Assembly (NCBI GenBank): GCA_963801355.1
Contig: CAWDEM010000004.1
Location: 864,001-928,000 of the forward strand
Direction of reading: 5' to 3'
DNA: 64,000 nt
From: Ignavibacteriota bacterium
GTDB taxonomy: Bacteria > Bacteroidota > Ignavibacteria > UBA10030 > UBA6906
Part shown: piece by piece, positions 12,517 through 31,306 of the stretch
How positions within the stretch are numbered: the first letter of the stretch is position 1
How the letters are laid out: each line of letters starts with the position of its first letter
The notes under the pieces: generated by a model
What the model was told of the DNA's origin: nothing
What the model saw: the letters and a program-made list of their open reading frames with translations, nothing else
Database searches by the model: none
Made by a program: the position numbers and the translations under genes

Positions 12517-12530
12517 GTGCCCGGAACCGG
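12517..12530 (-). repeat. Degenerate displaced tRNA-Leu 3' end (att-like)
   Basis: GTGCCCGGAACCGG matches 31222-31235 at 13/14; adjacent GAGGAT...ATCCTC hairpin (12495-12516). Confidence 0.6.
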
Positions 12531-12771
12531 TGGACCCTGTGGCTGCAACAATAACCAGGCCTCGGATACTGGACGAAAATTGCTCATCGCCAGAAGAACA
12601 GAGGTTAATCCCATATTCATCCTATAGATCGATTGACCCGTCGCTTTCTTATAGGTAGGATGGATATAGTTGGCGGCCAGGCAAATAGCCTGACTCGAGA
12701 AAAGTGTACTTACGTGACTAATGGTTAATAACGGAGTGCCAAACCATCTACCATACGCCAATGGGGACCGC

Positions 12772-14397
12772 ATGCGCTTTCCCCGCAGCAGACTGCACGA
12801 GGCCGCTCTGGCATTGCTGACCTTCCTGCAGTTCTGCCCATCTACACTCTTCCCGGCTGACCCTCCGCTTTACATCGACAAGATCGAGATTGTGCGCAAA
12901 GATATCTTCGACACCACGAAAGTCGAAGACCGTCACTTCCTGGGTTCGGTTGTCAACGGTCTCCATGTCCTGACGCGCGAAGACGTCGTGCGAAGAGAAC
13001 TTCTTTTCAAAGAGGGGGACGCGCTTGATGAAACAGTCCTTCAGGAATCAGCGCGGAATCTTCGCGCACTCGGATACCTGGGCGACGTGACGATCTCCTC
13101 ATATGCAATATCAGAAACATCCGCCGTTGTTGCCGTGGTGACACAGGATCGCTGGAGCATCGATATGCTTCCCGCGTACAAACAGGAGGGTGGAGCCACA
13201 GCACAACGCTATACGCTGAAAGACGACAACTTCCTTGGTGGGGGGCATAGCCTGAGTCTGAGCTATTCTTACCGGACGGACCGTCCATCCCCCCACGGGA
13301 CGGAAGTGGTATTGCGGGAAAGGAACCTCTTCGGAACCAGACTGCAGGCACTCCTTCAGCAAAGAAACGGATGGGACCAGCAAAGAACTACCGTCGGTCT
13401 TGAGCAGGCGTACTATTCCGACAGGACACCCTGGGCTGGCGGGATCAGTGCGGAGTTCGGCCGCCAGAAACAGGTGTTCTATCGCGATGGCATGCTGGCC
13501 TATGATGAAGAGACGGAAAGACAAATGCAGTGCGGATGGCTCTCGATGTCCTTCGGATCCCGCGCTCTCGTGCGGCCGGCAATCAGCTACCTGCGCATCC
13601 GGACCAACTGCATCGAGCCGCGGATCTACGATAACCTTGATCTCGTCACCATCAGCACAAGCTACCTGGATCGGGCGTTTGTCGAGCGCTCCAATCTCAA
13701 CAGCTCCGGACGCACCGAAGATATGCCCGTGGGGTTCTGGGCAGGAGTGACGCTGGGAAGAAACTTCCTCGTACAGGGAGTATCTGCGCCTCTTTACGTG
13801 GGAGGCGTGACGCTGCAGCATGCTATGCTTCTCACGGATCGATTCTACATGGGATGGAATGCGTCTTTCCAGGGCTACTGGGGCGGCTCTCGGAAAGAAG
13901 AAGCGACGGTCTCTGTTCTACTCCTCCACCATCTGAAGATCTCAGCGTTTCAAACCCTCGTGGCGCAGGTGAATGCTGTTGCAGGTATTGGATGGTCAGG
14001 GCGGCGCCAGCTCCTCCTCGGCTCGTCAACGGGCCTTCGGGGGTATGGTGAAAGGAGCTTTGCGGGCGACAGGATGATTACCTACAGCCTGGAGCATCGG
14101 ATCTTCACCAACCTGAACCTGCTCTTCTTCCGGGTCGGGGGGGCTCTGTTTCTGGATGGCGGGACGGTCTGGTCAGGGGATGCTCACCCCGGAAGACAGC
14201 GATTCTCCAATGCCGCCGGTGTAGGGCTCCGCATTGAGAATACGAAAGTCCAGGGTGCGGGCCTGATCAGAATCGACTGGGCGATGAACCTCGATGAACA
14301 GAAACCCGGTCAGATCATTATCTCCAGCAAACTGCCATTCAATGCGTTTCTCAATCTCGACGGCGTCTCGGGGCTCGGGTCACCGGGGGTGGAGTAA
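12772..14397 (+). CDS. BamA/TamA (Omp85)-family outer membrane protein with POTRA domain
   Basis: TREDVVRRELLFKEGD..D...LQESARNLR POTRA motif; GLRGY motif; C-terminal beta-strands. Confidence 0.85.
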   Translation: MRFPRSRLHEAALALLTFLQFCPSTLFPADPPLYIDKIEIVRKDIFDTTKVEDRHFLGSVVNGLHVLTREDVVRRELLFKEGDALDETVLQESARNLRALGYLGDVTISSYAISETSAVVAVVTQDRWSIDMLPAYKQEGGATAQRYTLKDDNFLGGGHSLSLSYSYRTDRPSPHGTEVVLRERNLFGTRLQALLQQRNGWDQQRTTVGLEQAYYSDRTPWAGGISAEFGRQKQVFYRDGMLAYDEETERQMQCGWLSMSFGSRALVRPAISYLRIRTNCIEPRIYDNLDLVTISTSYLDRAFVERSNLNSSGRTEDMPVGFWAGVTLGRNFLVQGVSAPLYVGGVTLQHAMLLTDRFYMGWNASFQGYWGGSRKEEATVSVLLLHHLKISAFQTLVAQVNAVAGIGWSGRRQLLLGSSTGLRGYGERSFAGDRMITYSLEHRIFTNLNLLFFRVGGALFLDGGTVWSGDAHPGRQRFSNAAGVGLRIENTKVQGAGLIRIDWAMNLDEQKPGQIIISSKLPFNAFLNLDGVSGLGSPGVE

Positions 14398-14576
14398 ATC
14401 CGCTTCACAAGTCCTCTAAGCATGAAAACTTCCTAGATTCCTACAAGTGAATCAGTGGAGGATCGTTATCTTGGCAGCTGCCGTCACCTCTGTCTGGCGT
14501 CCGTGACCCGGACGTAGTCCCACATCACACCGACCGTTCATGTTGATTTAGAACTTCGGGTTGCCTATGTTTTCGC

Positions 14577-16775
14577 ATGAGCTCCAGACCGCCTCATTTC
14601 CCCTGTGCCGTCCTTTTCCTGTTGATCGTCCCGTTGGGTTTTCCCTTTCGGGCCATAGCCCAGACGTCGTTTTCCGACAGCTCGTTGTTGCGCCACGCGT
14701 CCTACGTCCGAGAGGCCATACAGGAAATTGATAATGCTCGCCTGTGGAATTCGATTGACCTCGACCGCTCAGACATCCAGGACCTCCGCAAGTCTGTGAG
14801 TGCCGGAGATTTCGAGCGGGCGGCAATCGCGTGGGGTGCGTACTGGTCGGGGAAAAAACAGCCCGCGTACATAACCTCGATGGACCATCTTCTGCAGGAT
14901 ACTGACATGCTGGAATCCCCGATGGATTTCCGGGATGCGATGCTCCAGTCTGCGGACGAGCGGGACACGATCATTGCCCGCGCAGACCTGATACTGCAGA
15001 ACACGATCCCGACGTGGGGAGACAACGTTATCACGTTTGGAGAGAAGTTGGATTTCAACAGAGATATGGGGCAGTCGGGGAAATACGGTTTTCACTATTG
15101 GACTTGGTCCCGTCCGCTTCTCATGGCCTCGGTACTCACAGGTGATGAGAAATACCTGGAGAAGTTTGATAAACTGTTCAACGCGTGGTACGAGCAGCGC
15201 AACTCGATCACCCGGGGGTTTCCTTCCCTGGATGTTGTTTACTATGAGCTCGGGCTGGGGATGCGGAACCGGATGTTCATCGAGTACTACCTTCTCCCTC
15301 GCCGGCAGCGAAGCCCCGAGTCCCAAGTGCGGCTGCTCAAGACATTCCTTGCCGCAGGGCGCTGGCTCTATCAACTGGAGAAATGGGAAGGGTACAGGCC
15401 GGGCAACTGGCAAGTCCACGGCTCATACATGCTTGTCCAGCTCGCGCTTGTGTTCCCCGAGTTTCGCGAATCGGCACAATGGCGGCAGACAGGTCTGCAG
15501 CGGATGATGGAACACCTGGAGCAGGACTTTTTCCCCGATGGCGGACATTCCGAGCGCTCCCCCCGAAACTACACGATGGCGACATACCTGAACTACCGCA
15601 ACCTGGCATACCTCCTTGCAGCGTACGAGACCGAGCAGGGAGCCGCGAGGCGCATCCATGCATCCATGGGCCGCACGTTCGAATGGTGGAGAAACATGCT
15701 TACTCCGACGGGCGAGGTTCCGGCCATCAATGACAGCCATCGAGGGCTCTTTCCGGAGAGAATCACGCGCGACCGAAAACGGCTTTCCGCAGGCGACAGC
15801 GGTGCCCGTCCGCGATACACCTCCCGCCATTTGCCCGCGTCAGGATTCACCGTCATGCGAAGCGACTGGTCGCGGGATGCATTGTACATGACGGTCAATT
15901 ACGGCCCGTCCGCAGGATTTCATACTCACCTGGACCTCCTCGATTTCGAGCTCTATGCTTACGGAACACCGCTCGCCGTGGACGCAGGCATCGGCCTGAC
16001 CTACGACGACTCCCTCTATCTCACCTGGTACAGATCGTCGCCGGCACACAACATGGTTGTCGTCAACGACAGCAACGTTGAACGGGAAGGGTTGCGGGGA
16101 GAGAACATTCAGTGGGCTTCCACCGCCACCGTGGACTATTTCGCCGGAGAAGAAAACGGATACCGGCGATTCCTTGTCCGCCATCGCAGGCAGATTGCGT
16201 TCGTAAAGCCTTCCTACTGGCTTGTCGTGGATGACCTTCACTGCAGCCGCAGCAATGACACTCTCTCCTGGTACTTTCATTCTCCCACTGTTCTTCTTCC
16301 CGCTGGTACGGGATTCGAAAGCGAATCTGCTCCCGGGATCCGGATTATTCCAGTTGGTGTGAACTGTACCAGCCGGGTCGGGAAAGGAATGGCGGCAAGT
16401 ACAAGTGACCGGGTGCCGGGTAGAACAGAGGAGATCAATTGGGTGAGGTTCGACCAGCTCAGCCTGGCAGACTCTGCCAACCAGTTTCCCATCCTCCTCT
16501 TTCCATTCCGTGCTGCCAGCGACATCCCCCGGGTGGCCAGGCTTTCTGCGCAACACTTCGTCGTTCAACATGCTGGATCAGTCGACAATCTGCATTTTAC
16601 ATCCGGGGCGTATGCGGACGACACGATGCAAACGGACGCCTCGTTTGTTCTCATCAGGAAAAGAAACGACGGCCGGCTATCGTATGTTGTGGTAAACGGC
16701 ACGTTTCTGAGGTATCGCACAAAGATTCTCTGGAGCTCTTTTTCTGCAGGCTCCGGCGAGGGGGAAGTGCCGTAG
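14577..16775 (+). CDS. Heparinase II/III-like polysaccharide lyase
   Basis: Signal peptide; GNWQ, DGGHSERSPRNY, SGFTVMRSDW, HTHLDLLDFEL, AHNMVVVN. Confidence 0.85.
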   Translation: MSSRPPHFPCAVLFLLIVPLGFPFRAIAQTSFSDSSLLRHASYVREAIQEIDNARLWNSIDLDRSDIQDLRKSVSAGDFERAAIAWGAYWSGKKQPAYITSMDHLLQDTDMLESPMDFRDAMLQSADERDTIIARADLILQNTIPTWGDNVITFGEKLDFNRDMGQSGKYGFHYWTWSRPLLMASVLTGDEKYLEKFDKLFNAWYEQRNSITRGFPSLDVVYYELGLGMRNRMFIEYYLLPRRQRSPESQVRLLKTFLAAGRWLYQLEKWEGYRPGNWQVHGSYMLVQLALVFPEFRESAQWRQTGLQRMMEHLEQDFFPDGGHSERSPRNYTMATYLNYRNLAYLLAAYETEQGAARRIHASMGRTFEWWRNMLTPTGEVPAINDSHRGLFPERITRDRKRLSAGDSGARPRYTSRHLPASGFTVMRSDWSRDALYMTVNYGPSAGFHTHLDLLDFELYAYGTPLAVDAGIGLTYDDSLYLTWYRSSPAHNMVVVNDSNVEREGLRGENIQWASTATVDYFAGEENGYRRFLVRHRRQIAFVKPSYWLVVDDLHCSRSNDTLSWYFHSPTVLLPAGTGFESESAPGIRIIPVGVNCTSRVGKGMAASTSDRVPGRTEEINWVRFDQLSLADSANQFPILLFPFRAASDIPRVARLSAQHFVVQHAGSVDNLHFTSGAYADDTMQTDASFVLIRKRNDGRLSYVVVNGTFLRYRTKILWSSFSAGSGEGEVP

Positions 16776-16822
16776 ACCCCGGTTCTGTATCATTCAATAA
16801 ACCTTGACGAAAGTGCCTCTCC

Positions 16823-18049
16823 ATGTATCGACGTGAATTTCTGAAGACGAATGCATCCGCACTCTGCTTGGGGCTTGGCTCAGTAGTGCCAGGATCAATG
16901 TTCCAGGAATTGTTCTATTACGCATGGAGCTGGGACAAATGGCGGGCCCTGACCGGAACAAAACCACAGCGGTACCTGTCCGATCAGATTGGGCAGCATG
17001 AGCTTGTTGACCTGCTAACGGTGGGAGGCCGCAGGATTGTGAGCCCCGAAGAATGGCTCACGAAGCGGGAAGAAATCAAGCACATCCTGTTGCAGGTCCT
17101 GGGAGATCTTCCTCGTGCCACACCCCCGCTCAATCCGAGAATCGTGGAAGAGAAGGACTTTGACAAGTATGTGCGCCGGAAAGTCGTCTATACGGTGGAA
17201 TCAGGCGACGACGTTTCTGCCTATGTCTTTCTCCCGAAAGATGGCGTCAGGAGGCATCCCGCAGCGTTGTGCGCACACCAGACGAATCCGTACGGCAAAC
17301 GCGAAGCTGCCGGCATCGATGGAAATCCCGCGATGGCATTTGCGCCCGAGCTGGCAGAGCGGGGCTACGTTACCATTGCGCCGGATGAAATCTGCTTCGG
17401 CGAGAGACATAATCCGTTGCTTGGCCATTACGGCGATGCCATTGCGTTCTATGAAAAGCATAAGGAGTGGTCCATTGCGGGAAAAATGATCTGGGATAAA
17501 TCACGGGCGATTGACTACCTCCAGACGCTGGACGAAGTCGATCCGGAGCGGATTGGCGCGATCGGGCATTCGCATGGAGCGTACGGATCGCTGCTTGCTG
17601 CCGCGTTTGACAGCCGCATCAAAGTCGTGATCTCAAGCTGCGGTTTCGTCCCATTCCGCACCGACGGCAACACGTTTCGCTGGTCGCATGCCACAGCATT
17701 AATACCGAAGCTCGGGTTCTTTCTCGGCGGAAGAGAAATGACTCTGCAAACCTTCCAGAATATCAGACTCAAAGAAGTGGATCAGACTCCCTTCGATTGG
17801 CATCATATTCTCTCTCTCATCGCTCCGCGGGCGCTCTTCCTCTCCGTTTCGCTGGATGATGAGGTTTTTCCCGGCGGCGAAAGTATCAGGAGCCAGGTGG
17901 TACCTCGCATCGAGCCAATCTACGAACTGTACAAGCATCGCGAGAACTTTGCAGCGCATTTCTTCCACGGAGGACACACCATCCCTCAGGAAGCCCGGGC
18001 AAAAGCGTTTGCGATGCTGGACCGTTGTCTGATGGATAACACGAAGTGA
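16823..18049 (+). CDS. Alpha/beta-hydrolase (dienelactone hydrolase / carbohydrate esterase-like), Tat signal
   Basis: MYRREFLK; RAIDYLQTLDEVDPERIGAIGHSHG; LIAPRA; GGHT. Confidence 0.85.
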   Translation: MYRREFLKTNASALCLGLGSVVPGSMFQELFYYAWSWDKWRALTGTKPQRYLSDQIGQHELVDLLTVGGRRIVSPEEWLTKREEIKHILLQVLGDLPRATPPLNPRIVEEKDFDKYVRRKVVYTVESGDDVSAYVFLPKDGVRRHPAALCAHQTNPYGKREAAGIDGNPAMAFAPELAERGYVTIAPDEICFGERHNPLLGHYGDAIAFYEKHKEWSIAGKMIWDKSRAIDYLQTLDEVDPERIGAIGHSHGAYGSLLAAAFDSRIKVVISSCGFVPFRTDGNTFRWSHATALIPKLGFFLGGREMTLQTFQNIRLKEVDQTPFDWHHILSLIAPRALFLSVSLDDEVFPGGESIRSQVVPRIEPIYELYKHRENFAAHFFHGGHTIPQEARAKAFAMLDRCLMDNTK

Positions 18050-18073
18050 CGGCACCGAAGAATTCGCGCGCAA

Positions 18074-18102
18074 TTGACTCTGCCCCCAACCCGTTGTATA
18101 TT
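18074..18102 (+). promoter_or_regulatory. Sigma70-type promoter TTGACT-17-TATATT
   Basis: Near-consensus boxes; same module as 1897 and 21339. Confidence 0.75.
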
Positions 18103-18160
18103 GCCGCCGTATTGTTGGTACCTCGTGCCGTAGGAATCATACATGCGCGGGGGAGATTCC

Positions 18161-20509
18161 ATGATCGGTCAGACGGTTTCCCACTACAAGATTCTTGAGA
18201 ATCTGGGAGAAGGCGGGATGGGCGTCGTCTACAGAGCCCAGGACACTCGCCTCAAGCGCACCGTAGCCCTCAAGTTCCTTCCTCCGAATCTTACCCGCGA
18301 CGATGAAGCCAAAACCCGCTTCATGCACGAAGCCCAGGCCGCGTCAGCCCTCCAACATCCTAACATCTGCACAATCCACGATTTTGATGAGACCGCAGAT
18401 CACCAGCTGTTCATAGTGATGGATTGCTACGACGGAGAGACGCTGAGATCGCGAATCGCGAAGGGGGATTCACGAATTGGAGATGCGATTGACATCGCCA
18501 TTCAGGTGGCGCAAGGGTTGGAGAAAGCTCACGAAAGCGGGATTGTACACCGCGACATCAAGCCGGCCAATATCTTCGTCGACAGGGATGGTATCGTGAG
18601 GATTCTGGATTTTGGAGTGGCGAAGCTCTCGAGCCAGACGGTGCTGACCAGGAGCGGCGGTACCGTCGGTACGGCAGCATACATGTCGCCGGAGCAGGCG
18701 CGGGGAGAACAGGTCGATCAACGGACGGACATCTGGTCATTGGGCGTCACACTATATGAGATGATCTGCGGCAAGCCTCCGTTTGCCGCGGACTACGAGC
18801 AAGCCCTCATCTACCTGATCCTCGGTGAGGAACCCCAGCCGATGCGGAACGCGCAGGAACATCTTCCCGTCGAGCTGGAACGCATCGTGGAGAAGGCCCT
18901 GGCCAAGAATGTCGCTAAACGCTACCAGCACGTCGGCGACATGAAGGCAGACCTGCAGGCACTCAAACGACAAGTCGAGGCAGGCACAGCAACGTCGCGA
19001 ACGTTTACCCTGAGAATCCCGCGGAAGAAACGGCCTTACGTATATGGTGCCTTGGTTCTCATGGTAATAACGATCGTGGTTGCGGTGCTCGTTTCCTTGG
19101 GAGGTGGGAAGGAGGCGATAGATTCCCTGGCCGTCCTTCCGTTCGAGAACCTCTCGGGCAATCCCGATCAAGCCTATCTGGCGGACGGAATCCATGAGAC
19201 ACTGATTACTGACCTGGCCAAGCTCAGTGGGTTCCGGCGTGTCATTGCAAGATCATCCGTCAAGCGGTTTGCCAATACTTCGTTGTCGCCGCGGGAAATC
19301 GCAGAGCAACTTGGCGTGAGGGCATTGCTGACCGGATCGGTTTCGAGATTCGGGGACGAGATTCAGGTGACGGCTCACCTGATCAATGCGCCAACGGAGA
19401 ATACCGTCTGGTCCGAACGCTACATTCGAAAAGCCGGAGATGTGCTTCCCCTGGTGAACGAGATCGTCACTACGCTGGCTCGACAGATCGAACTCCGTCT
19501 GACGTCTGCCGAGCAGGCACGGCTTCAGGTCCCTCGAAATGTGAAGTCTGACGCGTTCGAGGCGTACCTGCAGGGAACGTTTCACTATACCAAGCAGACG
19601 AAGGAAGATCTCGACAAGGCGGAACGATATTTCAATCTGGCTCTGGAAAAAGATTCCACCTTTGCCCTTGCATACGGCGGACTCGCGAGGGTCTGGGCGA
19701 TACGGGCGGACGCCGGTTTCCAGCCCCCCCGTGAGACGTTTCCTAAGGCAGAAGCATTTGTTGCCAGGGCACTTGCGATGGATTCTACGATGGCGGAACT
19801 TCACGTTGATCTCGCCAATATCAAGAATGCGACGGACTGGGACTGGGGAGGTGCAGAGCTGGAATTCAAACGGGCGCTCGCCATCAATCCAAACCTGGCC
19901 GATGGGCATTTCTTCTATGCTGACTTTCTTCATTACCTCGGTCGGTCGAAAGAGTGGGAGATTGAGATGGAGCGCGCCCTCGAGCTGGATCCTTTGAATG
20001 ATTTCAAGCGTACCTACTACGGGTGGAACCTCAATTACGCGGGGCGCTACGACGAGGCCATCCCCATTTTTCTCAAACTCCTCGAAACGGGTCCGAATAA
20101 GTCGGCAAATTATCTAGGCCTCTGGGGAGCTTATTATAAGAAGGGTAGGTACGGGCAAGCGCTGTCAGAAGCAAAGAACTACTTCCTGACGAGCGGTGGC
20201 GGCGAATTTGGCGAGTCTTTGAGCGCAGACAGCGTGGTCAGCGAGGCCGCGTACCGCGCTGCAATGCGGCGTACCGGGCAAATCATGGCACAACGTTCGG
20301 CCCAAAGACACGTTCCAGCTATCCGGATCGCGCGCATGTTCGCTCATGGGGGGGACAACGACAAAGCCATGTTTTGGCTGGAACGGGCATATGAGGCGCG
20401 CGAGTCTCCCCTGATGCGGCTTGCCGTGTTCTGGGACTGGGACAATTTGCGTTCCGACGCACGCTTCCAGGACCTGCTGCGACGGATGAATCTACCGGTT
20501 GGAAACTGA
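18161..20509 (+). CDS. Ser/Thr protein kinase with TM segment, TolB-N-like domain and TPRs
   Basis: GEGGMGVVY, VALK, HRDIKPAN, DFG, YMSPEQ; SLAVLPFENLS; TPR region ending DNLRSDARFQDLLRRM. Confidence 0.95.
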   Translation: MIGQTVSHYKILENLGEGGMGVVYRAQDTRLKRTVALKFLPPNLTRDDEAKTRFMHEAQAASALQHPNICTIHDFDETADHQLFIVMDCYDGETLRSRIAKGDSRIGDAIDIAIQVAQGLEKAHESGIVHRDIKPANIFVDRDGIVRILDFGVAKLSSQTVLTRSGGTVGTAAYMSPEQARGEQVDQRTDIWSLGVTLYEMICGKPPFAADYEQALIYLILGEEPQPMRNAQEHLPVELERIVEKALAKNVAKRYQHVGDMKADLQALKRQVEAGTATSRTFTLRIPRKKRPYVYGALVLMVITIVVAVLVSLGGGKEAIDSLAVLPFENLSGNPDQAYLADGIHETLITDLAKLSGFRRVIARSSVKRFANTSLSPREIAEQLGVRALLTGSVSRFGDEIQVTAHLINAPTENTVWSERYIRKAGDVLPLVNEIVTTLARQIELRLTSAEQARLQVPRNVKSDAFEAYLQGTFHYTKQTKEDLDKAERYFNLALEKDSTFALAYGGLARVWAIRADAGFQPPRETFPKAEAFVARALAMDSTMAELHVDLANIKNATDWDWGGAELEFKRALAINPNLADGHFFYADFLHYLGRSKEWEIEMERALELDPLNDFKRTYYGWNLNYAGRYDEAIPIFLKLLETGPNKSANYLGLWGAYYKKGRYGQALSEAKNYFLTSGGGEFGESLSADSVVSEAAYRAAMRRTGQIMAQRSAQRHVPAIRIARMFAHGGDNDKAMFWLERAYEARESPLMRLAVFWDWDNLRSDARFQDLLRRMNLPVGN

Positions 20510-20590
20510 TCGACAAAGCGAATCTCAAGCGTCAATCGCGATGCACCATGATTCAAACAAGACTCTCCACCACAACACAGGGAGGTAATC

Positions 20591-21169
20591 ATGATACGCG
20601 CGGGCCTAATAGGCTTGTCCGTGATCGCGTTTCTGCTCTTGACTCAGCCATCAACCACATGCGCCCAGGGTAACGAGGTGCGTCCCAGCCTCCAGGCCGG
20701 CGTCATGCAGAGACTCGGGACGAATACCGATATCACCATTCAATACGGCAGACCGGGAGTCAAAGGAAGAAAGATCTGGGGCGGCCTCGTGCCGTATGGC
20801 ATGGCTCCGGGAAACGAATACTCCGGGGGAAAGCCATATCCGTGGCGGGCCGGCGCCGATGAGAATACGACCATTGAACTGAGCAAGGATGTTCTCATCG
20901 AAGGAAAGAAACTGGCGGCGGGCAAATACGGCATCCACATGATCCCTTCGGAAAAAGAATGGATCGTTGTTTTCAGCAAGAACAACTCCAGCTGGGGAAG
21001 TTATTCCTACGACCCCAAAGACGATGCGCTGCGGGTCAGTGTGACTCCCGTTGAAACCCCGCACATGGAGTGGCTCACATACGGCTTTGATGACCTTAAA
21101 GGAACCTCGGCAACCGCTTTCCTCCACTGGGAAGGTCTGAAAGTGCCGTTTAAGATTGAGCTGCCGTAG
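20591..21169 (+). CDS. DUF2911 domain protein
   Basis: GGAGG RBS; ITIQYGRPGVKGRKIWGGLVPYG, WRAGADENT, YDPKDDALRV. Confidence 0.9.
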   Translation: MIRAGLIGLSVIAFLLLTQPSTTCAQGNEVRPSLQAGVMQRLGTNTDITIQYGRPGVKGRKIWGGLVPYGMAPGNEYSGGKPYPWRAGADENTTIELSKDVLIEGKKLAAGKYGIHMIPSEKEWIVVFSKNNSSWGSYSYDPKDDALRVSVTPVETPHMEWLTYGFDDLKGTSATAFLHWEGLKVPFKIELP

Positions 21170-25100: not shown

Positions 25101-26345
25101 ATCTACAACCTTCTCGCCAACGCATTCAAATACACGCCGGATGGTGGGAAGGTAGAGGTGAGAGCTGCGCTTGGGGCGCATGATGGTCGACACGACGGCG
25201 GTTCCAAAGGGCCCTCCTGCGTGGAAATCACGGTGTCGGACACCGGCATCGGGATCCCGCCCGAAAGCCTGGACAAAGTGTTCGAGCGGTTCTACCAGGT
25301 TCAGGAACCGAAGGCGCGTGAGCTAGGGGGAACCGGTATCGGGCTGGCCTTGGTGAAGGAACTCGTCGATCTGCATCACGGAAGCATTTCTGTGGAAAGC
25401 CATGTGGGAGGGGGGACGACATTCAGAATCCAACTGCCCATAGGGAAGGGCCAATTCGGTTCAGACGAGGTTGCGGAAGACGAACTTGATCAGGACGAAG
25501 TCCAGGGGCCTTCTGTGGAGGTTTCTGAGGTCCCTCGAGCCGAGGCGGAGTCGACACGGAGTGCCCGGGAGGCTAGAGATCGGCAAAGGGCGCTCGTGCT
25601 CGTGGTGGAGGATAACCCGGATATGCGCACATACCTTACCGGGTCCCTGAAGGCTGACTATCGCGTCGTCGAAGCAACCGACGGGGAGGCAGGTCTTCAG
25701 GTGGCGATAGATGGGATCCCCGACCTCGTGATCAGCGACGTAATGATGCCGAGAATGGACGGGTTCGAGCTCTGCAGGCGACTGAAAGACGACGACCGGA
25801 CCAGCCATATTCCGGTCATTCTCCTGACAGCCCGCGCGACCTCGAGGGATAGGCTGGAAGGACTGGAACGGGGAGCCGATGATTACATCATCAAGCCGTT
25901 CGATGTTGGGGAACTCAAGGCTCGTGTGGGGAATCTCATCGCCCTCCGACGGAAACTGAGGGAACGCTTTGTCCGTGAGGGGCGATTTCTCCTGGAGAAT
26001 GCTCCTGTCACGTCTCTGGATAAGGTTTTTCTGCGAAAGGTAATTGAGGCTGTGCAGCAGCACCTTCGAGACGACCAGTTTGGCGTTGAATCCCTCGCCC
26101 GGATTGTTGGATTCAGTGTTTCGCAGCTTGAGCGAAAGCTCGAGGGCATCGCAAGCCAGCGTCCCAATGAGTTCATTCGTGCGATCCGGCTCGAGCAGGC
26201 GCGGCACATGCTCGAGGCACGAGCGGGAACAGTCTCTGAAATCGCCTTTGACGTCGGTTTCAACAACCTGTCGTATTTTGCACGATCCTACAAGAAGAAG
26301 TTCGGTTTTTCCCCCTCCAGAACCCCTGAGGCAACCCGCAAGTAG
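22152..26345 (+). CDS. Hybrid two-component sensor/regulator (beta-propeller, Y_Y_Y, HisKA, HATPase, REC, AraC HTH)
   Basis: Repeated LWIGT..GL units; YAYKLEGF; FANISHEFRTPLT; DTGIGI, GTGIGL; ISDVMMP; GFNNLSYFARSYKKKFG. Confidence 0.97.
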   Translation: MEKHPPLVSDLSWILGVLLFPCVLQAQEVHPRFEDYKNIFPTCVYQDSFGFLWIGTQVGLTRYDGYSFKRYTVALNDSNAISNLWVTDIDEDHRGNLWIGTYGGGLNYYDQKTGRFVHHALTNAASGGVASDFINALTADDDGSVWLGTGDRGVIHLTVDSGGTPRWKRYDLTDPASSTPPKGQNFILALHKDREGYVWAGTIRGGLTRIYPRTGDVRHYRNEPGNPLSLSHNTVGSICEDEAGNLWIGTGFEAIPDGGGINMFDRNTEQFRRFKHDALDPTSLPSDRIGSLLIDRGGTLWIGTLDEGLASIPLHGLAVGKKTSFTSYPDLRKEIIVSLYEDRWGNVWASTFGSLLYKHDSLQNPFIHYRRYAGKANSMSSTGVQSVFFDRSGNLWFGFYSTGLDRYDPRPGRFTHYRHRPDDPRSIGADRINGICEDDSGYVWLATNGGGLNRLDPRDGAVLQLKGIRKYPGEVASNFLRAILARRGGGFWVALQNSTLRLYDRVVDRFITVDLPTRSGPVAEIASLCEDQSGALWVGTMGEGILRVRMEKDRPLDVKRFVRIPGERNSLSYNGVNDIIRAGILDTNALWIATDFGLNRLDLETSTFTHFFERDGMASDVVLKVLEDARGNIWCSTIEDICMYDVRRKHITSYGLSDGLPFIDFGGARQNAARAPDGQMVFSGASGSLGFYPERLRRNTRVPPVYLTDIRVFHESLDLDTAVQFTHRVTLSHSQNTLSIEFIALSFTHCERNQYAYKLEGFQDEWTYCRTERTASFSNLDPGRYVFRVKGSNNHGVWNEEGTSLLITITPPWWRSRWAYAGYVLLAVGTIVGAWRLQTRRLRTRHELELRRVEAEKMRELDSQKSNFFANISHEFRTPLTLILGPVSRLLSRPRNELDRQDLGIMERNARRLQRLINQLLDLARIEAGRLKLHAHPVDLVRYLNRVVATFESHARLRDIDLSFTAIPDRIEVFLDPEKFEDVIYNLLANAFKYTPDGGKVEVRAALGAHDGRHDGGSKGPSCVEITVSDTGIGIPPESLDKVFERFYQVQEPKARELGGTGIGLALVKELVDLHHGSISVESHVGGGTTFRIQLPIGKGQFGSDEVAEDELDQDEVQGPSVEVSEVPRAEAESTRSAREARDRQRALVLVVEDNPDMRTYLTGSLKADYRVVEATDGEAGLQVAIDGIPDLVISDVMMPRMDGFELCRRLKDDDRTSHIPVILLTARATSRDRLEGLERGADDYIIKPFDVGELKARVGNLIALRRKLRERFVREGRFLLENAPVTSLDKVFLRKVIEAVQQHLRDDQFGVESLARIVGFSVSQLERKLEGIASQRPNEFIRAIRLEQARHMLEARAGTVSEIAFDVGFNNLSYFARSYKKKFGFSPSRTPEATRK

Positions 26346-26447: not shown

Positions 26448-26580
26448 CCGTGTTAGCTTTCCGGAGCCGCATGAGCGTACCTTCCGAACACAGGTCGACG
26501 GTTGTTGTGTGCGCAAGCCGCCCTGCACAAACCACAACGAGAAGTCCTTGCCGGGATTACACCACGTGCGGAGGTATCAT

Positions 26581-28431
26581 ATGAAACCTTATCATTTCCT
26601 TCTGGTGTCCGTCGGGGCCGTGGCGTTCTTCGCTGCATTCAACGATTCATCGGCGGCCATTCGGCGCGTACCATCACAGTACGGCTCCATACAGCGTGCT
26701 ATCGAAGCGGCCCTCGACGGAGATACTGTTCTCGTGGCAGACGGCACCTACTATGAGAACATCAGATTCATGGGGAAAGCCATCACGGTAGCCAGCCACT
26801 ATCTCATCGACATGGACGCGAGGCACATCGACAGTACTGTCATCAATGGGAGTCGGCCGGCCAGTCCCGACTGGGGTTCCACCGTACTCTTCATCAATGG
26901 CGAGGACACGAGTTCTGTACTCTGGGGGCTGACCATCACGGGCGGAACAGGCTCTGTGAACCCCTCCGGCTACCGCGTGGGTGGTGGTATCTGGATAAAG
27001 GCGGGCTCCGGCGCTAGAATCTGCCACAATAGGATCATTTCCAACAACGTGTCTCAGCTCACGTTTGCGCTTGGAGGGGGTGTTTCCGCCGGATCCCCAT
27101 ATCAGCCCGGGGGCTGGCTTATTCTTGAAGACAACGAAATCTCCCGGAACACCGTCACAGGATCAGAAGGCGTTGGAGGGGCCGGTGTGCTCTGCTCGCT
27201 ACCTGCGAGGATCCAGCGGAATCGCATTGAAGGCAATGAAGGTTTCACAGGGGGAAGCGCTGACGACGGCGCCGGGATAAGCTGCTGGACAGATGTTCAA
27301 CGAGGGAAGAAGGAACTGCTCCTGTGCGGGAATATCATTACCAGAAACAAGTTCACTTCAACGGGTGTAGATCAGTACGGTCAAAGCGGTCTCGCCGGGG
27401 GAATGTCCGTTGTTGGATACCGGGGGATTGTCGAGCACAATGTCATCACTGAGAACGAACTCGAGGGACCTGCGGCGTTGTACGGCGGGGGTGTCTTGAT
27501 AAGCGACTGTAATGACTCTACGGAATTCCGCAACAACAGAATCAGCGGAAACAAGTTGATCGGGAACGGGGAGCAACGGGGTGGGGGAGTGTGCGTCTGG
27601 GAGTGCAGCCCGAAAATCTACAACAACATCATTACGGGCAATGAGGGGAGGATGGGGGGAGGGGTCTATGTGGGTGGGACCGCGTCTACGGGTCGGCCGC
27701 AGATGATCAACAACACCATATGCGAGAATCAAGCGTCGTCTGGATGTGGCCTTTACGCAGATTCTTCATATCCGGTTGTCATCAATTCGATCCTGTGGGA
27801 TCAGAATCAGGACACGGAGGTCTGGCAGGTGGGAGGACAGGTCACGATCGCGTATTCGGATGTCAGGGGTGGCTGGCTAGACACGGGGAATATAAACGCC
27901 GATCCGCTTCTTTTGCCAGGGGATTCAATGTGTAACCTGATGTCAAGTAGTCCTTGCATCGGACGCGGCATTGACTCCATTCAGATTGGTGGAGTCTGGT
28001 ACCATGCGCCAACAAGCGACTACGACAGGACGGCACGCCCAATGCCGACGGAAACTCATCCTGACATGGGTGCGCAGGAGGAGCAGATCACTGTGGATGT
28101 TGAGACCCAGGAGCTTGTGCCCTTGACATATCAGCTGTATCAGAACTACCCCAACCCCTTCAACCCCTCAACCACTATCCGCTACGATCTCCCGAGCCGC
28201 TCCCATGTGATCCTGACCGTCTTCAACACACTCGGGCAGCAGGTAGCCACGCTCGTCCAGGGGGAACGGGAGGCTGGGTATCACGAGGTCAAGTTTGATG
28301 CTTCAGAACTTGCGAGCGGAGTGTATCTGTACAGGATGCAGGTCCGCCCTCTGGACTCCGCCATCGGGCGGGACTCCAAGAGCGGAGCGGGAGAATTCGT
28401 CCAGACGCGAAAGTTTGTCCTTCTGCAGTAA
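26581..28431 (+). CDS. Right-handed beta-helix protein with T9SS CTD
   Basis: GGAGG RBS; VPSQYGSIQRAI...GDTVLVADGTYYENI; GGG/N-ladder repeats; GNINADP; QNYPNPFNP. Confidence 0.9.
   Translation: MKPYHFLLVSVGAVAFFAAFNDSSAAIRRVPSQYGSIQRAIEAALDGDTVLVADGTYYENIRFMGKAITVASHYLIDMDARHIDSTVINGSRPASPDWGSTVLFINGEDTSSVLWGLTITGGTGSVNPSGYRVGGGIWIKAGSGARICHNRIISNNVSQLTFALGGGVSAGSPYQPGGWLILEDNEISRNTVTGSEGVGGAGVLCSLPARIQRNRIEGNEGFTGGSADDGAGISCWTDVQRGKKELLLCGNIITRNKFTSTGVDQYGQSGLAGGMSVVGYRGIVEHNVITENELEGPAALYGGGVLISDCNDSTEFRNNRISGNKLIGNGEQRGGGVCVWECSPKIYNNIITGNEGRMGGGVYVGGTASTGRPQMINNTICENQASSGCGLYADSSYPVVINSILWDQNQDTEVWQVGGQVTIAYSDVRGGWLDTGNINADPLLLPGDSMCNLMSSSPCIGRGIDSIQIGGVWYHAPTSDYDRTARPMPTETHPDMGAQEEQITVDVETQELVPLTYQLYQNYPNPFNPSTTIRYDLPSRSHVILTVFNTLGQQVATLVQGEREAGYHEVKFDASELASGVYLYRMQVRPLDSAIGRDSKSGAGEFVQTRKFVLLQ
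28342..28386 (+). repeat. 45-bp palindromic in-frame CTD insert, copy 2
   Basis: Identical to 31062-31106. Confidence 0.95.
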
Positions 28432-28453
28432 TGACCGTCAAGCCGAAAATTGA

Positions 28454-28488
28454 AAGAGCCCTCATCTCTAACGAGATGGAGGGCTCTT
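28454..28488. terminator. Terminator hairpin, paralog of the tRNA-Leu terminator
   Basis: AAGAGCCCTC-ATCTC...GAGAT-GGAGGGCTCTT; homologous to 31171-31206. Confidence 0.8.
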
Positions 28489-28502
28489 CTGTAAGTTGAC
28501 CC

Positions 28503-28584
28503 AGTGCCCGGAACAGGAAATGTCGACTCTGCGAAGCCAATTGGGGATACGGAGGGCTCCTGGTGGATTATCAGGGAGATGCCC
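28503..28584 (-). repeat. Displaced tRNA-Leu 3' end plus conserved att arm
   Basis: AGTGCCCGGAACAGGA is 16/16 identical to 31221-31236; the arm is shared with 21775-21855. Confidence 0.9.
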
Positions 28585-28800
28585 TTGGACCCCCCGAAGC
28601 CACGGCGGAAAAGTAACGAAAAAGGTAACGTTACTTTGAGGTGACGTTACTGATATCCTCGCCATCGTTTAGTACCGTTCAGTTTTCGGATTCCCTCCCA
28701 GTCGTAAGGACAAGCGTCCGTCCGACGCATGAACTGAACCAGCAACAGAGGGCTTCGCCGCCCCGGGATGGGTGACGCGGTTCCTCCTTCCTGAAAGACC

Positions 28801-28829
28801 TTGCGTGTACACCTTTGTCGGCGTATATT
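28801..28829 (+). promoter_or_regulatory. Promoter TTGCGT-17-TATATT of cassette A
   Basis: 17-bp spacing; homologous to 21916. Confidence 0.65.
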
Positions 28830-28843
28830 GCCGGCACAGACTG

Positions 28844-28933
28844 TTTGGCGCCCAATGGTCCCTTAGCCTCTGGGCCGCCGCTCTGGACCCTGTATCAGTT
28901 CCTCCGCCTTAGAGCCCACCCCGACGACTCGCA
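28844..28933 (+). repeat. Conserved non-coding leader element, copy 3
   Basis: Core GGGCCGCCGCTCTGG at 28872-28886. Confidence 0.85.
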
Positions 28934-29039
28934 TGAGGATTCCATGTGCAGCGGTGCCGCCTGGGGGGCTGACGCCTCGTCGCATGCCTAGATCCCCGAA
29001 GAGCCCCACGGTGCATATCCCTTTTTGGAGGAGGACAGG

Positions 29040-31151
29040 ATGACAAGATCTCTCGTTCACCTCGCGCTCGCTACTCTGCTAGCGTGCTCTTCTGCATCCA
29101 CGCAATGGCTTCAGACGAGCGGCCCTGAGGGCGGAGAGGTAAATTGTTTTGCCGCCAGCGGCGAGTATCTGTTTGCCGGAACCGAGGTCGGTATACTTCT
29201 CTCAACCGACAACGGCACGAGCTGGGTGTACACTGCACTGAGGGGGACGGTTCTGTGCCTTGCCGTCAAACCCAACAGTGCATCGGCAACTTCTCTCTTT
29301 GCCGGGGGTCCTTTTGGAGTGGGTCGCTCCACGGACAACTGGAATAGCTGGGCTCATGCGGATGCCGGTCTGGGAGACAACGGCGTGAGGAGTCTCGCTG
29401 TGAAAGACACCAATATTTTTGCGGGGACGGACAGCGGTGGCGTTTTTCGTTCGAGGGATGAGGGTGCAAGCTGGTTTCCCGTCAATGAAGGCTTGACCAA
29501 TATCTTCGTCAACTCTCTTGCCGTGATCGACAGAGATCTTTATGCTGCAACCGATAGTGGACTATTCCGTTTTTCAGATGACGGCACCAGTTGGGCGTTT
29601 ATTGGACTTGCCGGGAAGATCGTCAATACTGTTGCCGCCATCGACACGAGTCTCTTTGCGGGAACCGAACGTGACGGTCTTTTCCGCTCGACTGATGTTG
29701 GGAGGAACTGGAAGGCGGACACCATTGCCGGCATGGATCCGTCTGTCAGAGCGTTTGCCGTGACCCCTCCGTATCTCTTTGCAGGCACGCCGGGCGGGCT
29801 CTATCGCACACCTGACGGCGGACGATCCTGGTCCCGCTTCGATGCGGGTCTGAGCAATCCAAACGTGAAGGCGTTGTGTATCAAAGGTGTGGTTCTCTTT
29901 GCCGGGACCTATGGTGGAGTCTTTCGTTCAACGGACGGCGGAGAGCACTGGAGCAAAACCAGCGCCGATATGAAGATCGTGTTTGTGGAAGCCCTTGCGA
30001 GCAGGGGTGAAACTCTCTATGCAGGGGGTATTAACGGAGTGTTTCGTTCGACTGACCGCGGTGATAGCTGGTCCGACGTTGTGAGTTGCTGGGCTCGTTC
30101 GCTTGCCATCGAAGGGATGAAGCTCTACTTGGGGACCACGGAACATGTGTTCTACTCATTCGACGACGGTGCCACATGGAACTTTCTCTGGTTGGGCGTG
30201 GCCGAAGGGCTGGTGTATGCCCTTGCCGTCAACGGTACGGAGCTTCTTGCAGGGATGGCGAGGGACGGGGTGCTGCGCATTGGGATTCCCACTCCGGGTG
30301 CCGGGATTGTTACCACGACGGACCTGAAAGATACTGCTGTCTATGCCCTCGCTGTCAGTGGAACGAATCTCTTTGCCGGGACTGAGAGGGGCGTGTTTCG
30401 CTCAACGAATGGCGGAATCAACTGGACTGCCGTCAATAACGGGCTGACGAAATTCGAAGTCCTGGCCCTCGCCGTTCAGGGGTCGCACCTCTTTGCGGGT
30501 ACGAAAGAGGGAGGCATGTTCCTTTCGACAGACGACGGCGGCACTTGGACTCCTGCGGATAGCGGACTCACTGACGCGGATATACTGTCTTTCGCAATCA
30601 GTGGCAACAATCTCTTCGCGGGGACCTGGCAGGGCGGCGTCTTCCTTTCATCGGACAACGGCACGAGCTGGAATGCCGTCAATGACGGTTTAACGAATTC
30701 ATCTGACCAGGTTTCTTCCGTCGTTCATGCCCTGGCAATTGTGGGTACAGATCTGTACGCTGGGACCCGGGGGGCCGGCGTATGGCGACGTCCACTCTCT
30801 GAGATGGTAGTGTCGGTGGAGAATACGCCAACCGAATTGCCCTCATCGTATTCTCTGCACCAGAACTACCCCAACCCCTTCAACCCGAGCACGTCCATCA
30901 CGTACGAGTTGCCTATCAGCGCGGACGTGAGGTTGGCCGTATACGACGTGCTTGGCCGCGAAGTATCAGTTCTTGTGCAGGAAAGGAAGACGGCCGGAAT
31001 ACATAAACTCATGTTTGAAGGAGGAGGCCTCTCCAGCGGAGTTTATCTCTACAGGCTGCAGGTCCGCCCTCTGGACTCCGCCATCGGGCGGGACTCCAAG
31101 AGCGGAGCGGGCGATTTCGTCCAGACGCGAAAGCTTCTCCTTCTGCAATGA
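29040..31151 (+). CDS. BNR/Asp-box beta-propeller protein with T9SS CTD
   Basis: Many LFAGT..GVF.STD.G..W repeats; signal peptide; QNYPNPFNP. Confidence 0.9.
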   Translation: MTRSLVHLALATLLACSSASTQWLQTSGPEGGEVNCFAASGEYLFAGTEVGILLSTDNGTSWVYTALRGTVLCLAVKPNSASATSLFAGGPFGVGRSTDNWNSWAHADAGLGDNGVRSLAVKDTNIFAGTDSGGVFRSRDEGASWFPVNEGLTNIFVNSLAVIDRDLYAATDSGLFRFSDDGTSWAFIGLAGKIVNTVAAIDTSLFAGTERDGLFRSTDVGRNWKADTIAGMDPSVRAFAVTPPYLFAGTPGGLYRTPDGGRSWSRFDAGLSNPNVKALCIKGVVLFAGTYGGVFRSTDGGEHWSKTSADMKIVFVEALASRGETLYAGGINGVFRSTDRGDSWSDVVSCWARSLAIEGMKLYLGTTEHVFYSFDDGATWNFLWLGVAEGLVYALAVNGTELLAGMARDGVLRIGIPTPGAGIVTTTDLKDTAVYALAVSGTNLFAGTERGVFRSTNGGINWTAVNNGLTKFEVLALAVQGSHLFAGTKEGGMFLSTDDGGTWTPADSGLTDADILSFAISGNNLFAGTWQGGVFLSSDNGTSWNAVNDGLTNSSDQVSSVVHALAIVGTDLYAGTRGAGVWRRPLSEMVVSVENTPTELPSSYSLHQNYPNPFNPSTSITYELPISADVRLAVYDVLGREVSVLVQERKTAGIHKLMFEGGGLSSGVYLYRLQVRPLDSAIGRDSKSGAGDFVQTRKLLLLQ
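31062..31106 (+). repeat. 45-bp palindromic in-frame CTD insert, copy 3
   Basis: Identical to 28342-28386. Confidence 0.95.
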
Positions 31152-31170
31152 ATGTTACACTGGAAAATGA

Positions 31171-31206
31171 AAGAGCCCCCAATCTCGCTACGAGATGGGG
31201 GCTCTT
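31171..31206. terminator. Bidirectional terminator between the T9SS gene and tRNA-Leu
   Basis: AAGAGCCCCCAATCTCG-CTA-CGAGATGGGGGCTCTT stem. Confidence 0.85.
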
Positions 31207-31222
31207 CTGTATGGTGATCTAG

Positions 31223-31306
31223 TGCCCGGAACAGGACTTGAACCTGCACGACCTCGCGGCCACTAGCTCCTGAAGCTAGCGCGTCTGCCAATTTCGCCAT
31301 CCGGGC
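31223..31306 (-). tRNA. tRNA-Leu(CAG), CCA not encoded
   Basis: GCCCGGA/TCCGGGC acceptor stem, D-loop with TGG, CTAGC-TTCAGGA-GCTAG anticodon arm, long variable arm, GTTCAAGTC T-arm. Confidence 0.97.

What the first reader, a model, noticed from the sequence alone, without database searches (positions are those of the whole stretch)
12517..31306. Stack of integrase-free cassettes at tRNA-Leu(CAG) with constant ends and variable cargo (integron-like accretion)
SEEN: the tRNA 3' end recurs in the same orientation at 28503 (16/16), 21775 (15/16, ending CCA) and 12517 (13/14). Each copy has a hairpin on its downstream side. They divide the island into units of about 2.7 kb (A), 6.7 kb (B) and 9.2 kb (C). 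A and B share a left module: an ungapped ~81-bp arm (21775-21855 vs 28504-28584), a TTGCGY-17-TATATT promoter and a ~90-nt leader. They also share a ~200-bp right module: T9SS CTD tail, terminator and tRNA end. The cargo between is unrelated (beta-propeller vs HTCS + beta-helix protein). No integrase is visible in the window. KNOWN: site-specific integration at tRNA 3' ends restores the tRNA and displaces the old end. INFERENCE: a family of non-autonomous cassettes that bring their own promoter, terminator and secretion tag is added serially at one site by a recombinase acting in trans.
Basis: partly seen in the sequence, partly recalled or inferred. Interest (0 to 1): 0.9.

Follow-up and report, generated by a model that had tools for sequence, protein, structure and literature searches.

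The report
Integrase-less gene islets stacked at tRNA-Leu
Downstream of one leucine tRNA gene this uncultured Ignavibacteriota-like bacterium carries a row of small gene islets, each bounded by a copy of the tRNA's end and none with its own integrase, which is a clear new example of a known way that genomes collect foreign genes.

Summary
The 3' end of tRNA-Leu(CAG) (31222-31306, minus strand) recurs in the same orientation at 28504, 21775 and, weaker, 12517. This cuts the island into units of 2.7, 6.7 and 9.3 kb. Units A and B share an arm next to the displaced core and a terminator-plus-core module at the tRNA-side end. No recombinase gene lies in the window.

Comparison with 68 genomes of the family and 33 metagenome contigs shows a site-specific integration hotspot. 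The same arm sits beside tRNA-Leu end copies in 9 genomes of 7 genera, in front of 15 unrelated first genes. Unit order differs between genomes. The modules are 82-92% identical between genera whose core genes are 70-72% identical.

A candidate recombinase exists. A congener has an intact arm-binding tyrosine integrase that ends 1 nt from this tRNA, and stubs of it abut core-plus-arm junctions elsewhere. This genome has neither gene nor stub.

The promoter, leader and T9SS tail are genome-wide features, not cassette parts. There is no integron integrase.

Best reading: an accretion array of non-autonomous (CIME-like) islets. Mobilisation in trans is plausible but not shown. This is a new member of a known kind, of moderate interest.

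The parts
31222..31306 (-). tRNA-Leu(CAG). Its 3' 16 nt (31222-31237) are the recombination core (attB/attR).
   Evidence: ARAGORN; Rfam tRNA 54.4 bits
31152..31221 (.). tRNA-side (proximal) end of unit A: a two-way terminator hairpin plus spacer. It is homologous to 28432-28503.
   Evidence: Fold z = -5.85. 85-89% identical to the B copy (family D13). The same module is found in G053, G020 and several metagenome contigs.
29025..31151 (+). Cargo of unit A: a BNR/Sortilin-type beta-propeller protein with a T9SS C-terminal sorting domain.
   Evidence: Pfam. Homologues in the A-like units of G053 and G052 are only 43% and 40% identical in protein.
28801..28928 (+). Promoter (TTGCGT-17-TATATT, 28801-28829) and conserved leader (28861-28928) of unit A. 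This is a genome-wide motif.
   Evidence: Sequence. 15 copies in the genome in front of varied genes. No covariation.
28520..28660 (.). Distal arm of unit A, about 105 nt and conserved across genera, followed by a stretch with four GTAAC/GTTAC words.
   Evidence: No excess structure.
28504..28519 (-). Displaced tRNA-end core at the A|B junction.
28432..28503 (.). Proximal end of unit B: terminator hairpin plus spacer.
   Evidence: Fold z = -4.39
26509..28431 (+). Cargo of unit B: a right-handed beta-helix protein with a T9SS sorting domain.
   Evidence: Pfam
22152..26345 (+). Cargo of unit B: a hybrid two-component sensor/regulator (Reg_prop, Y_Y_Y, HisKA, HATPase, receiver, AraC HTH).
   Evidence: Pfam. 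37% identical to a gene that follows a core copy in G020.
21916..22042 (+). Promoter (TTGCGC-17-TATATT, 21916-21944) and leader (21975-22042) of unit B.
21775..21855 (.). Displaced core (21775-21790, 15/16) and distal arm of unit B.
21682..21733 (.). Hairpin at the proximal end of unit C. It is not homologous to the A and B terminators.
   Evidence: Fold z = -4.06
12531..21774 (+). Unit C. Genes: Omp85-like (12721-14397), heparinase II/III-like (14577-16775), esterase (16823-18049), Ser/Thr kinase with TPR (18143-20509), DUF2911 (20591-21169). It begins with a second type of arm (12531-12560).
   Evidence: Pfam. The arm type is shared with G004 and G052 contig C12.
12517..12530 (-). Decayed core copy (13/14).
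11861..12478 (+). hicB-hicA module. It is itself an islet: 92% identical in DNA to copies that follow core copies in G053 and G004.
   Evidence: Pfam HicA 2.6e-18
6851..9447 (+). Leader copy (6851-6931) and a 772-aa gene with no Pfam family. This is probably an older islet. In G052 the gene (88.7% identical in protein) lies between two core copies, and in G005 it follows an arm.

Best explanation
The stretch downstream of tRNA-Leu(CAG) is an accretion array. Several islets were inserted one after another by site-specific recombination in the last 16 nt of the tRNA gene. Each insertion restored the tRNA and pushed the earlier end copy outward.

Units A and B belong to a family of small non-autonomous elements. 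Their attachment region consists of a terminator module, the core, and a conserved arm of about 105 nt. In one sub-family GTAAC repeats follow the arm. These elements carry ordinary, self-expressed genes, often T9SS cargo, but no recombinase.

The likely recombinase is a lineage-specific tyrosine integrase with an arm-binding domain. It is specific for this tRNA end and is supplied by a co-resident island of the G001 type. That makes the units CIME-like 'hitchers'.

Shown: the att-bounded structure, the conserved ends, the variable cargo, the different order and horizontal spread between genera, and the existence and position of the integrase in relatives.

Inferred: that this integrase moved units A and B, and that it acted in trans. 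In this genome the array is probably immobile now, because the integrase is absent.
For: Cores, arms and sizes.

Spread of the arm:
- Arm matches of at least 80 nt in 9 of 68 family genomes (7 of 29 genera), counting G000; none in the 4 other genomes of the same genus.
- 9 loci in 7 MAGs among 185,579 species genomes.
- 33 metagenome contigs.

Different order of units:
- An A-like unit lies next to the tRNA in G052.
- In G053 it is further out, with hicBA and other DNA (including a 50-nt piece of the tRNA) between it and the tRNA.
- In G000 hicBA lies outside units A, B and C.

DNA identity of G000 to G052/G053/G073: core genes 70-72%, arm-mid-leader 82%, the 772-aa gene 86%, hicBA 92%. Part of unit A (promoter, leader and gene start) is 89% identical over 694 nt to a contig of another genus, G068.

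Cargo and integrase content:
- The first ORF after the arm falls in 15 unrelated clusters at 25 junctions; these are 25 of 46 junctions, and the other 21 have no ORF of at least 150 aa on the piece held.
- Of 33 non-redundant core-to-core units, 0 hold a full integrase and 4 hold fragments of 41-79 aa. A fifth, shorter stub, in a unit on L108, was seen only in the flank listing. Eight units are only 104-143 nt long.

The integrase:
- In G001 it is 376 aa with Arm-DNA-bind_2, Int_N and Phage_integrase domains, and it stops 1 nt before the tRNA end.
- Its C-terminal stubs abut cores in G004, G013 and G073.
- Its stubs abut core-plus-arm in L101/L103/L120, L107, L108 and G053.
- GTAAC/GTTAC words are 15-fold enriched at fixed places in 14 of 29 arms. 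Two GGTTAC repeats lie in the integrase 3' end.
Against: - No excision product, circle or empty site was seen. No public run holds this strain (best share 0.20), and only contigs could be laid.
- G000 has no homologue of the G001 integrase above 35% identity and no stub.
- None of the arm-bearing species genomes searched shows an intact close homologue. The helper is therefore rare or has been lost.
- In G001 the far end of the integrase island is not assembled, and no arm was found in that genome. The integrase and the arm are linked only through junctions in tandem arrays, where they belong to neighbouring units.
- The integrase-less tRNA-side end (terminator) does not resemble the integrase-bearing one, so it may lack arm-type sites.
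- The contigs were found with the arm as bait, and short contigs favour small units.
- The sequences are related, so the counts are not independent.
- Homologous recombination of incoming DNA through the conserved ends could also shuffle units.
Confidence: 0.6

Rival explanations
1. Fossil array. Each unit arrived as an ordinary island with its own integrase, the integrase genes were later deleted, and the units were never moved in trans.
For: - Integrase stubs next to cores in G004, G013, G073, G053 and metagenome contigs.
- Broken integrase genes in the G052 island.
- An integrase-bearing island at tRNA-Asp in the same genome carries the same kind of cargo: leader plus T9SS gene.
- There is no cognate integrase in G000.
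Against: - Units A, B and the A-like unit of G053, together with roughly a dozen further junctions (three in G020, one each in G004 and G013, and about nine on metagenome contigs), share the same integrase-less tRNA-side end: terminator plus spacer plus core. In A, B, G053, G020 and L124 this end directly follows a T9SS tail. Independent clean deletions would not give this.
- 0 of 33 bounded units keep a whole integrase.
- Eight gene-less units of 104-143 nt keep both cores.
- G000 gained arm units that its 4 congeners lack.
Confidence: 0.3
2. Local tandem duplication of one unit, followed by replacement of the cargo through homologous recombination between the genome-wide leader and CTD-tail repeats.
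For: The leader (15 copies) and the CTD tail (33 or more copies, 75-98% identical) offer homology on both sides of a gene. A and B share both ends.
Against: - The arm and mid of A are closer to those of G052 (87% and 90%), and the arm of A to that of G068 (85%), than the arm of A is to that of B (79%).
- The same arm bounds units at this tRNA in 7 genera with unrelated cargo.
- The boundaries fall exactly at the tRNA core.
Confidence: 0.05
3. An integron or an integrase-less cassette array (CALIN) in the strict sense.
For: A row of short units, each followed by a hairpin. Integron-integrase-like pseudogenes lie in the island of G052; this is my reading of the translation, and the family was not scored.
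Against: - No integron integrase in G000: best TIGR02249 score 88 bits against a cut-off of 265.
- The joints are copies of a tRNA end.
- The hairpins are near-perfect terminator-type stems.
- The units have their own promoters.
Confidence: 0.02

Closest known systems
CIMEs (cis-mobilizable elements) and tandem accretion at tRNA genes, as described for ICESt1/ICESt3-related elements of Streptococcus thermophilus. Passages read in the review PMC5704250; the primary papers were not read.
   Same: Elements without integration or transfer genes that keep attL and attR. They stand in tandem at the 3' end of a target gene and are thought to depend on the integrase of a related element.
   Different: - Here most units are very small (0.1-3 kb, often one gene).
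- They share conserved integrase-less ends across genera.
- They lie in uncultured Ignavibacteriota-like MAGs.
- No conjugative partner is known.
- No movement has been shown.
ssrA genomic islands of Dehalococcoides. Passages read in PMC3146451.
   Same: Many tandem islands downstream of one small RNA gene. Each is bounded by a direct repeat of about 20 nt of its 3' end. There is extra conserved sequence next to the repeat. 15 islands have no integration module, and the authors suggest they are cis-mobilizable.
   Different: In Dehalococcoides the recombinase is a serine recombinase inside a six-gene module, and the target is tmRNA. Here the candidate is a tyrosine integrase with an arm-binding domain, the target is tRNA-Leu(CAG), and none of the 33 bounded units holds it.
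Integron cassette arrays without integrase (CALIN). Passage read in PMC11389934.
   Same: Rows of short gene units without a recombinase of their own, thought to be moved in trans by a complete system elsewhere.
   Different: There is no attC, no integron integrase and no common promoter. The joints are tRNA-end copies, and the units are self-expressed.

Membership tests
tRNA-targeted genomic islands in tandem (accretion array) | Units bounded by direct repeats of the 3' end of an intact tRNA gene, all in one orientation and downstream of the tRNA | tested here: met
tRNA-targeted genomic islands in tandem (accretion array) | Variable content at the same site in related genomes | tested here: met
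   G018 has no core copy within 15 kb.
tRNA-targeted genomic islands in tandem (accretion array) | A site-specific integrase for this att site exists | tested here: met
   In G001 an intact integrase stops 1 nt from the tRNA end. It is absent from G000.
CIME (cis-mobilizable element) | No integration or transfer genes inside the unit | tested here: met
   Transfer genes were not searched with dedicated models; none of the 10 Pfam-scanned ORFs in or beside the array matched a recombinase or transfer family.
CIME (cis-mobilizable element) | attL and attR are retained and usable by a related element's integrase | tested here: inconclusive
   Cores and conserved arms are present. Their function was not tested.
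CIME (cis-mobilizable element) | Excision or transfer together with, or by means of, a helper | not testable with these tools
   No run of the same strain is available and only contigs could be laid.
Integron / CALIN | Integron integrase (IntI) in the genome or next to the array | tested here: not met
   TIGR02249 best score 88 bits, cut-off 265
Integron / CALIN | attC recombination sites between cassettes | not tested
   No attC model was run. The joints are tRNA-end copies beside terminator-type hairpins. Rfam gave nothing else in the region.
T9SS cargo proteins | C-terminal Por_Secre_tail sorting domain | tested here: met
   29025-31151, 26509-28431 and 9621-11846 carry the domain; 32746-35457 also does.

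The most novel reading that the evidence does not exclude
A family of miniature, integrase-less gene cassettes exists in this bacterial family. They range from single self-expressed genes, often T9SS cargo, down to gene-less units of about 140 nt. They are inserted, shuffled and exchanged between genera at tRNA-Leu(CAG) by a rare arm-binding tyrosine integrase acting in trans. This would be a tRNA-based working counterpart of an integron, in a phylum where mobile elements are hardly studied.
Probability: 0.3. Interest if true: 0.7.

Novelty: new member of a known kind. Interest (0 to 1): 0.5.

Why it matters
The locus shows how secreted-protein genes, regulators and a toxin-antitoxin pair are traded between genera of uncultured soil and wetland Ignavibacteriota-like bacteria at a single tRNA site. 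The traded units have kept only their attachment ends.

If the small units are moved in trans, they would be a clean natural case of 'hitcher' elements that depend on a helper's integrase. Their att ends and the candidate integrase could be tested directly at the bench.

If the units are fossils, the locus is an ordinary, though unusually tidy, island graveyard.

Tried and rejected
- Circles, empty sites and excision. One search for runs found no run with half of the words or more; the best share was 0.20. Contigs of 4 runs laid on 11800-31700 gave only short pieces of relatives. The joints listed (for example 28342 to 31110, and 31156 to 28451) lie in the repeated CTD tail and terminator and have short sides. 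They are not taken as excision or circles. Nothing can be said about absence.
- Viral contigs. The arm pattern gave 0 matches.
- Rfam. The region 9000-35000 at E up to 1 gave only the tRNA and one weak chance match.
- Arm as RNA or hairpin. No excess folding (z = -0.18 and +1.11).
- Arm as a coding remnant. The frames are not kept between copies when the alignments are read by eye. A short variable stretch looks like a hairpin with matching changes, but this was not tested.
- Leader as a structured RNA. RNAalifold on 18 copies gave -4.7 kcal/mol and 0 pairs with changes on both sides.
- The simple terminator scan did not list the hairpins beside the cores, and its totals were no higher than in shuffles.
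- Remnants of the 5' part of the tRNA to the right of the tRNA in the window. None with up to 4 mismatches in 22 nt.
- Integrase remnants in the window. None, even at E up to 10 for protein and up to 1 for DNA.
- The CTD insert as a free mobile element. Rejected: all 33 copies lie in frame in CTDs.
- Supplementary files of the papers were not opened.
- Not used: structure prediction, complex prediction, the search for homologous proteins, the search of protein representatives, the atlas, and the phage and plasmid collections.

Full report
WHAT IS THERE

The window holds one tRNA gene, tRNA-Leu(CAG), on the minus strand at 31222-31306. Its last 16 nt read GTGCCCGGAACAGGAC on the + strand. They recur in the same orientation at 28504 (15/16, or 16/16 if counted from 28503) and at 21775 (15/16). 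A 14-mer recurs at 12517 with 13/14.

In the whole 4.8-Mb assembly the 16-mer with at most one mismatch occurs four times: these three places and one solitary copy at C8:382797. The 14-mer with at most one mismatch occurs six times, four of them inside this 19-kb stretch. The copies are therefore not chance.

The units measure 2718 bp (A), 6729 bp (B) and 9258 bp (C). Strong hairpins lie just to the left of the cores at 31222, 28504 and 21775 (z = -5.9, -4.4 and -4.1). There is none to the left of 12517.

A and B share several stretches:
- an 81-nt arm directly right of the displaced core, 79% identical;
- a promoter, TTGCGY-17-TATATT;
- a 68-nt leader, 81% identical;
- at the other end, a CTD tail, terminator and core, 206 nt and 86% identical.

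Unit A holds a BNR-type propeller with a T9SS sorting domain. Unit B holds a hybrid two-component regulator and a beta-helix protein with a sorting domain. Unit C holds an Omp85-like gene, a heparinase-like gene, an esterase, a Ser/Thr kinase and a DUF2911 gene.

None of the eight Phage_integrase hits of the genome lies in the window. No serine recombinase was found in the genome.

WHAT IS NOT SPECIAL TO THE UNITS

A blastn search of the modules against the whole genome shows that the CTD tail is a multi-copy sequence. A 66-nt piece of it lies in frame in 33 T9SS tails.

The promoter-leader also recurs. There are 15 copies in front of varied genes: T9SS cargo, a kinase, the regulator, and small SnoaL-like proteins. 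One copy lies beside an integrase-bearing island at tRNA-Asp.

Only two parts are peculiar to A and B within this genome: the arm with the roughly 200 nt that follow it, and the terminator-spacer-core module.

The leader gave no covariation, and it is not in Rfam at E up to 1.

COMPARISON WITH RELATIVES

The arm is found with matches of at least 80 nt in 9 of the 68 family genomes searched, G000 included. These belong to 7 of 29 genera. It was not found in the 4 other genomes of the same genus.

A pattern for core plus arm start gave 9 loci in 7 MAGs, whose record titles read Ignavibacteriota, Ignavibacteriae or Bacteroidetes. It gave 33 metagenome contigs and no viral contig.

Where the tRNA is on the same piece, the arm lies downstream of tRNA-Leu(CAG):
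- 2.1 kb away in G007;
- 2.65 kb away in G052;
- 7.2 kb away in G073.

G052 has an A-like unit next to the tRNA. Its arm, mid and leader are 87%, 90% and 78% identical to those of A, but its cargo is only 40% identical in protein.

G053 has an A-like unit further from the tRNA. Between it and the tRNA lie a hicBA module and further DNA that holds a 50-nt piece of the tRNA. In G000 the hicBA module (92% identical in DNA) lies outside units A, B and C.

The 772-aa gene at 7129-9447 is 88.7% identical in protein to a G052 gene that sits between two core copies. In G005 the gene follows an arm.

Core genes to the right of the tRNA are 70-72% identical in DNA between these genomes. The modules are 82-92% identical. 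Part of unit A is 89% identical over 694 nt to a contig of yet another genus, G068.

The first ORF after the arm falls into 15 unrelated clusters at 25 junctions. The other 21 of the 46 junctions have no ORF of at least 150 aa on the piece held, and some junctions are the same locus on overlapping contigs.

Neither condition is met.

THE RECOMBINASE

In G001, a congener, an intact 376-aa tyrosine integrase stops 1 nt before the tRNA-Leu(CAG) end. It has an arm DNA-binding domain, a core-binding domain and a catalytic domain.

C-terminal stubs of this integrase abut displaced cores in G004, G013 and G073. Stubs also abut the core that is followed by the arm in contigs L101/L103/L120 (probably one locus), L107 and L108, and in G053.

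In a tandem array such a junction joins the tRNA-side end of an older, integrase-bearing island to the far end of a younger arm unit. That is the footprint expected if an integrase-less unit entered a cell whose resident island supplied the enzyme.

Two GGTTAC repeats lie in the integrase 3' end. GTAAC/GTTAC words are 15-fold enriched at fixed places in 14 of 29 arms, unit A included. These sequences are related by descent, so this is only a hint of arm-type binding sites.

G000 has no homologue of this integrase above about 35% identity and no stub of it. It has no integron integrase either.

Among 33 non-redundant units bounded by two cores, in all loci held, none has a whole integrase and four have fragments of 41-79 aa. 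One further unit, on L108, ends in a shorter stub that is seen only in the flank listing. Eight units are only 104-143 nt long and hold no gene.

This count is biased. The contigs were found with the arm as bait, and short contigs favour small units.

READING

The structure is that of repeated site-specific integration into a tRNA 3' end. Three rival readings were weighed.

- A local tandem duplication is unlikely. The arm and mid of A are closer to those of other genera than the arm of A is to that of B, and the same ends bound unrelated cargo in seven genera.
- A strict integron is excluded by the missing integrase, the tRNA-derived joints and the units' own promoters. No attC model was run.
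- The open choice is between non-autonomous units moved in trans by a G001-type integrase and fossils of islands that each lost their own integrase.

For the trans reading:
- the integrase-less tRNA-side end (terminator, spacer, core, directly after a T9SS tail where the tail is detectable) recurs at roughly fifteen junctions in all, with different cargo;
- gene-less mini-units keep both cores;
- G000 gained arm units that its congeners lack.

For the fossil reading:
- integrase stubs are widespread;
- no helper is present in G000 or in the arm-bearing species genomes searched;
- no excision product was seen, although no suitable reads existed.

I put 0.6 on the non-autonomous, trans-dependent family and 0.3 on pure fossils.

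KNOWN COUNTERPARTS

Integrase-less, att-bounded elements in tandem with related elements are known as CIMEs, and the process is called accretion (passages of PMC5704250).

The ssrA islands of Dehalococcoides form similar rows. Fifteen of those islands lack the integration module, and the authors suggest they are cis-mobilizable (passages of PMC3146451).

Integrase-less integron arrays (CALIN) are the integron counterpart (passage of PMC11389934).

One search for Ignavibacteri*, 'genomic island', tRNA and integrase together found 2 papers, neither about such a locus to judge from title and abstract. I make no claim beyond that search.

VERDICT

This is a real and well-delimited feature and a new member of a known kind. 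It has a testable candidate integrase and an unusually small-unit, cassette-like make-up. Interest is moderate.

Noticed in passing
window 28861-28928, 21975-22042, 6851-6931; 12 more places in G000 (for example C8:24839, C8:1043980, C4:1593553): A conserved leader of about 85 nt lies some 40 nt after a TTGAC-17-TATATT-type promoter and 60-230 nt before varied genes. There are 15 copies in this genome, and it also occurs in relatives. It is not in Rfam at E up to 1, and 18 copies showed no covariation. Its function is unknown.
   Followed up: partly
window 31059-31124, 28339-28404, 11755-11820; 33 places genome-wide: T9SS sorting domains of this genome carry an in-frame insert (VRPLDSAIGRDSKSGAG) before the last strand. 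The DNA of the insert is 86-100% identical among the 33 copies found with a 66-nt probe, while the whole tail module of about 250 nt is mostly 72-90% identical among its genome-wide copies. All copies lie in CTDs, so it is not a free element; gene conversion is possible.
   Followed up: partly
G000 contig C8:382797-382839 (outside the window): A solitary exact copy of the tRNA-Leu core with 27 nt of the arm lies between two T9SS cargo genes, 4 kb from tRNA-Ser(GCT). No tRNA-Leu gene lies within 100 kb of it (nearest: tRNA-Leu(GAG), about 114 kb away). It may be a moved piece or a secondary site.
   Followed up: partly
window 31307-40198: About 8.9 kb lies between the 5' side of the tRNA and the gene 40199-41251. 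In G052 the orthologue of that gene lies about 0.45 kb from the tRNA, and it is also near the tRNA in G053, G073 and G004. The 5' side therefore varies as well. It holds a DUF3160 T9SS cargo gene. No 5' remnant of the tRNA was found. In metagenome contig L103 a second integrase type abuts a 5' half of this tRNA.
   Followed up: partly
relatives: G004:C6:229249-229389, L091, L098, L099, L102, L125, G013: Recurrent gene-less units of 104-143 nt are bounded by two cores. Each begins with a CCCGC...GCGGG hairpin and ends with a terminator. In L098 and G013 such a unit lies next to the intact tRNA.
   Followed up: partly
G052:C19:41000-42100 and G052:C12:3800-4820: Two broken tyrosine recombinase genes lie inside the tRNA-Leu islands of G052. 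Their C-terminal motifs look like those of integron integrases to my eye; the family was not scored.
   Followed up: no
window 14425-14455, 32526-32556; C8:382900-382960: Repeats of a TTCCTACA-type word lie upstream of promoters of cargo genes. They may be a regulator's binding site.
   Followed up: no
G000 C4:1578560-1595018 (outside the window): An ordinary island lies at tRNA-Asp. Its integrase is 70 nt from the tRNA, followed by a leader copy and a T9SS cargo gene. A possible 14-nt end copy lies 16 kb away.
   Followed up: partly
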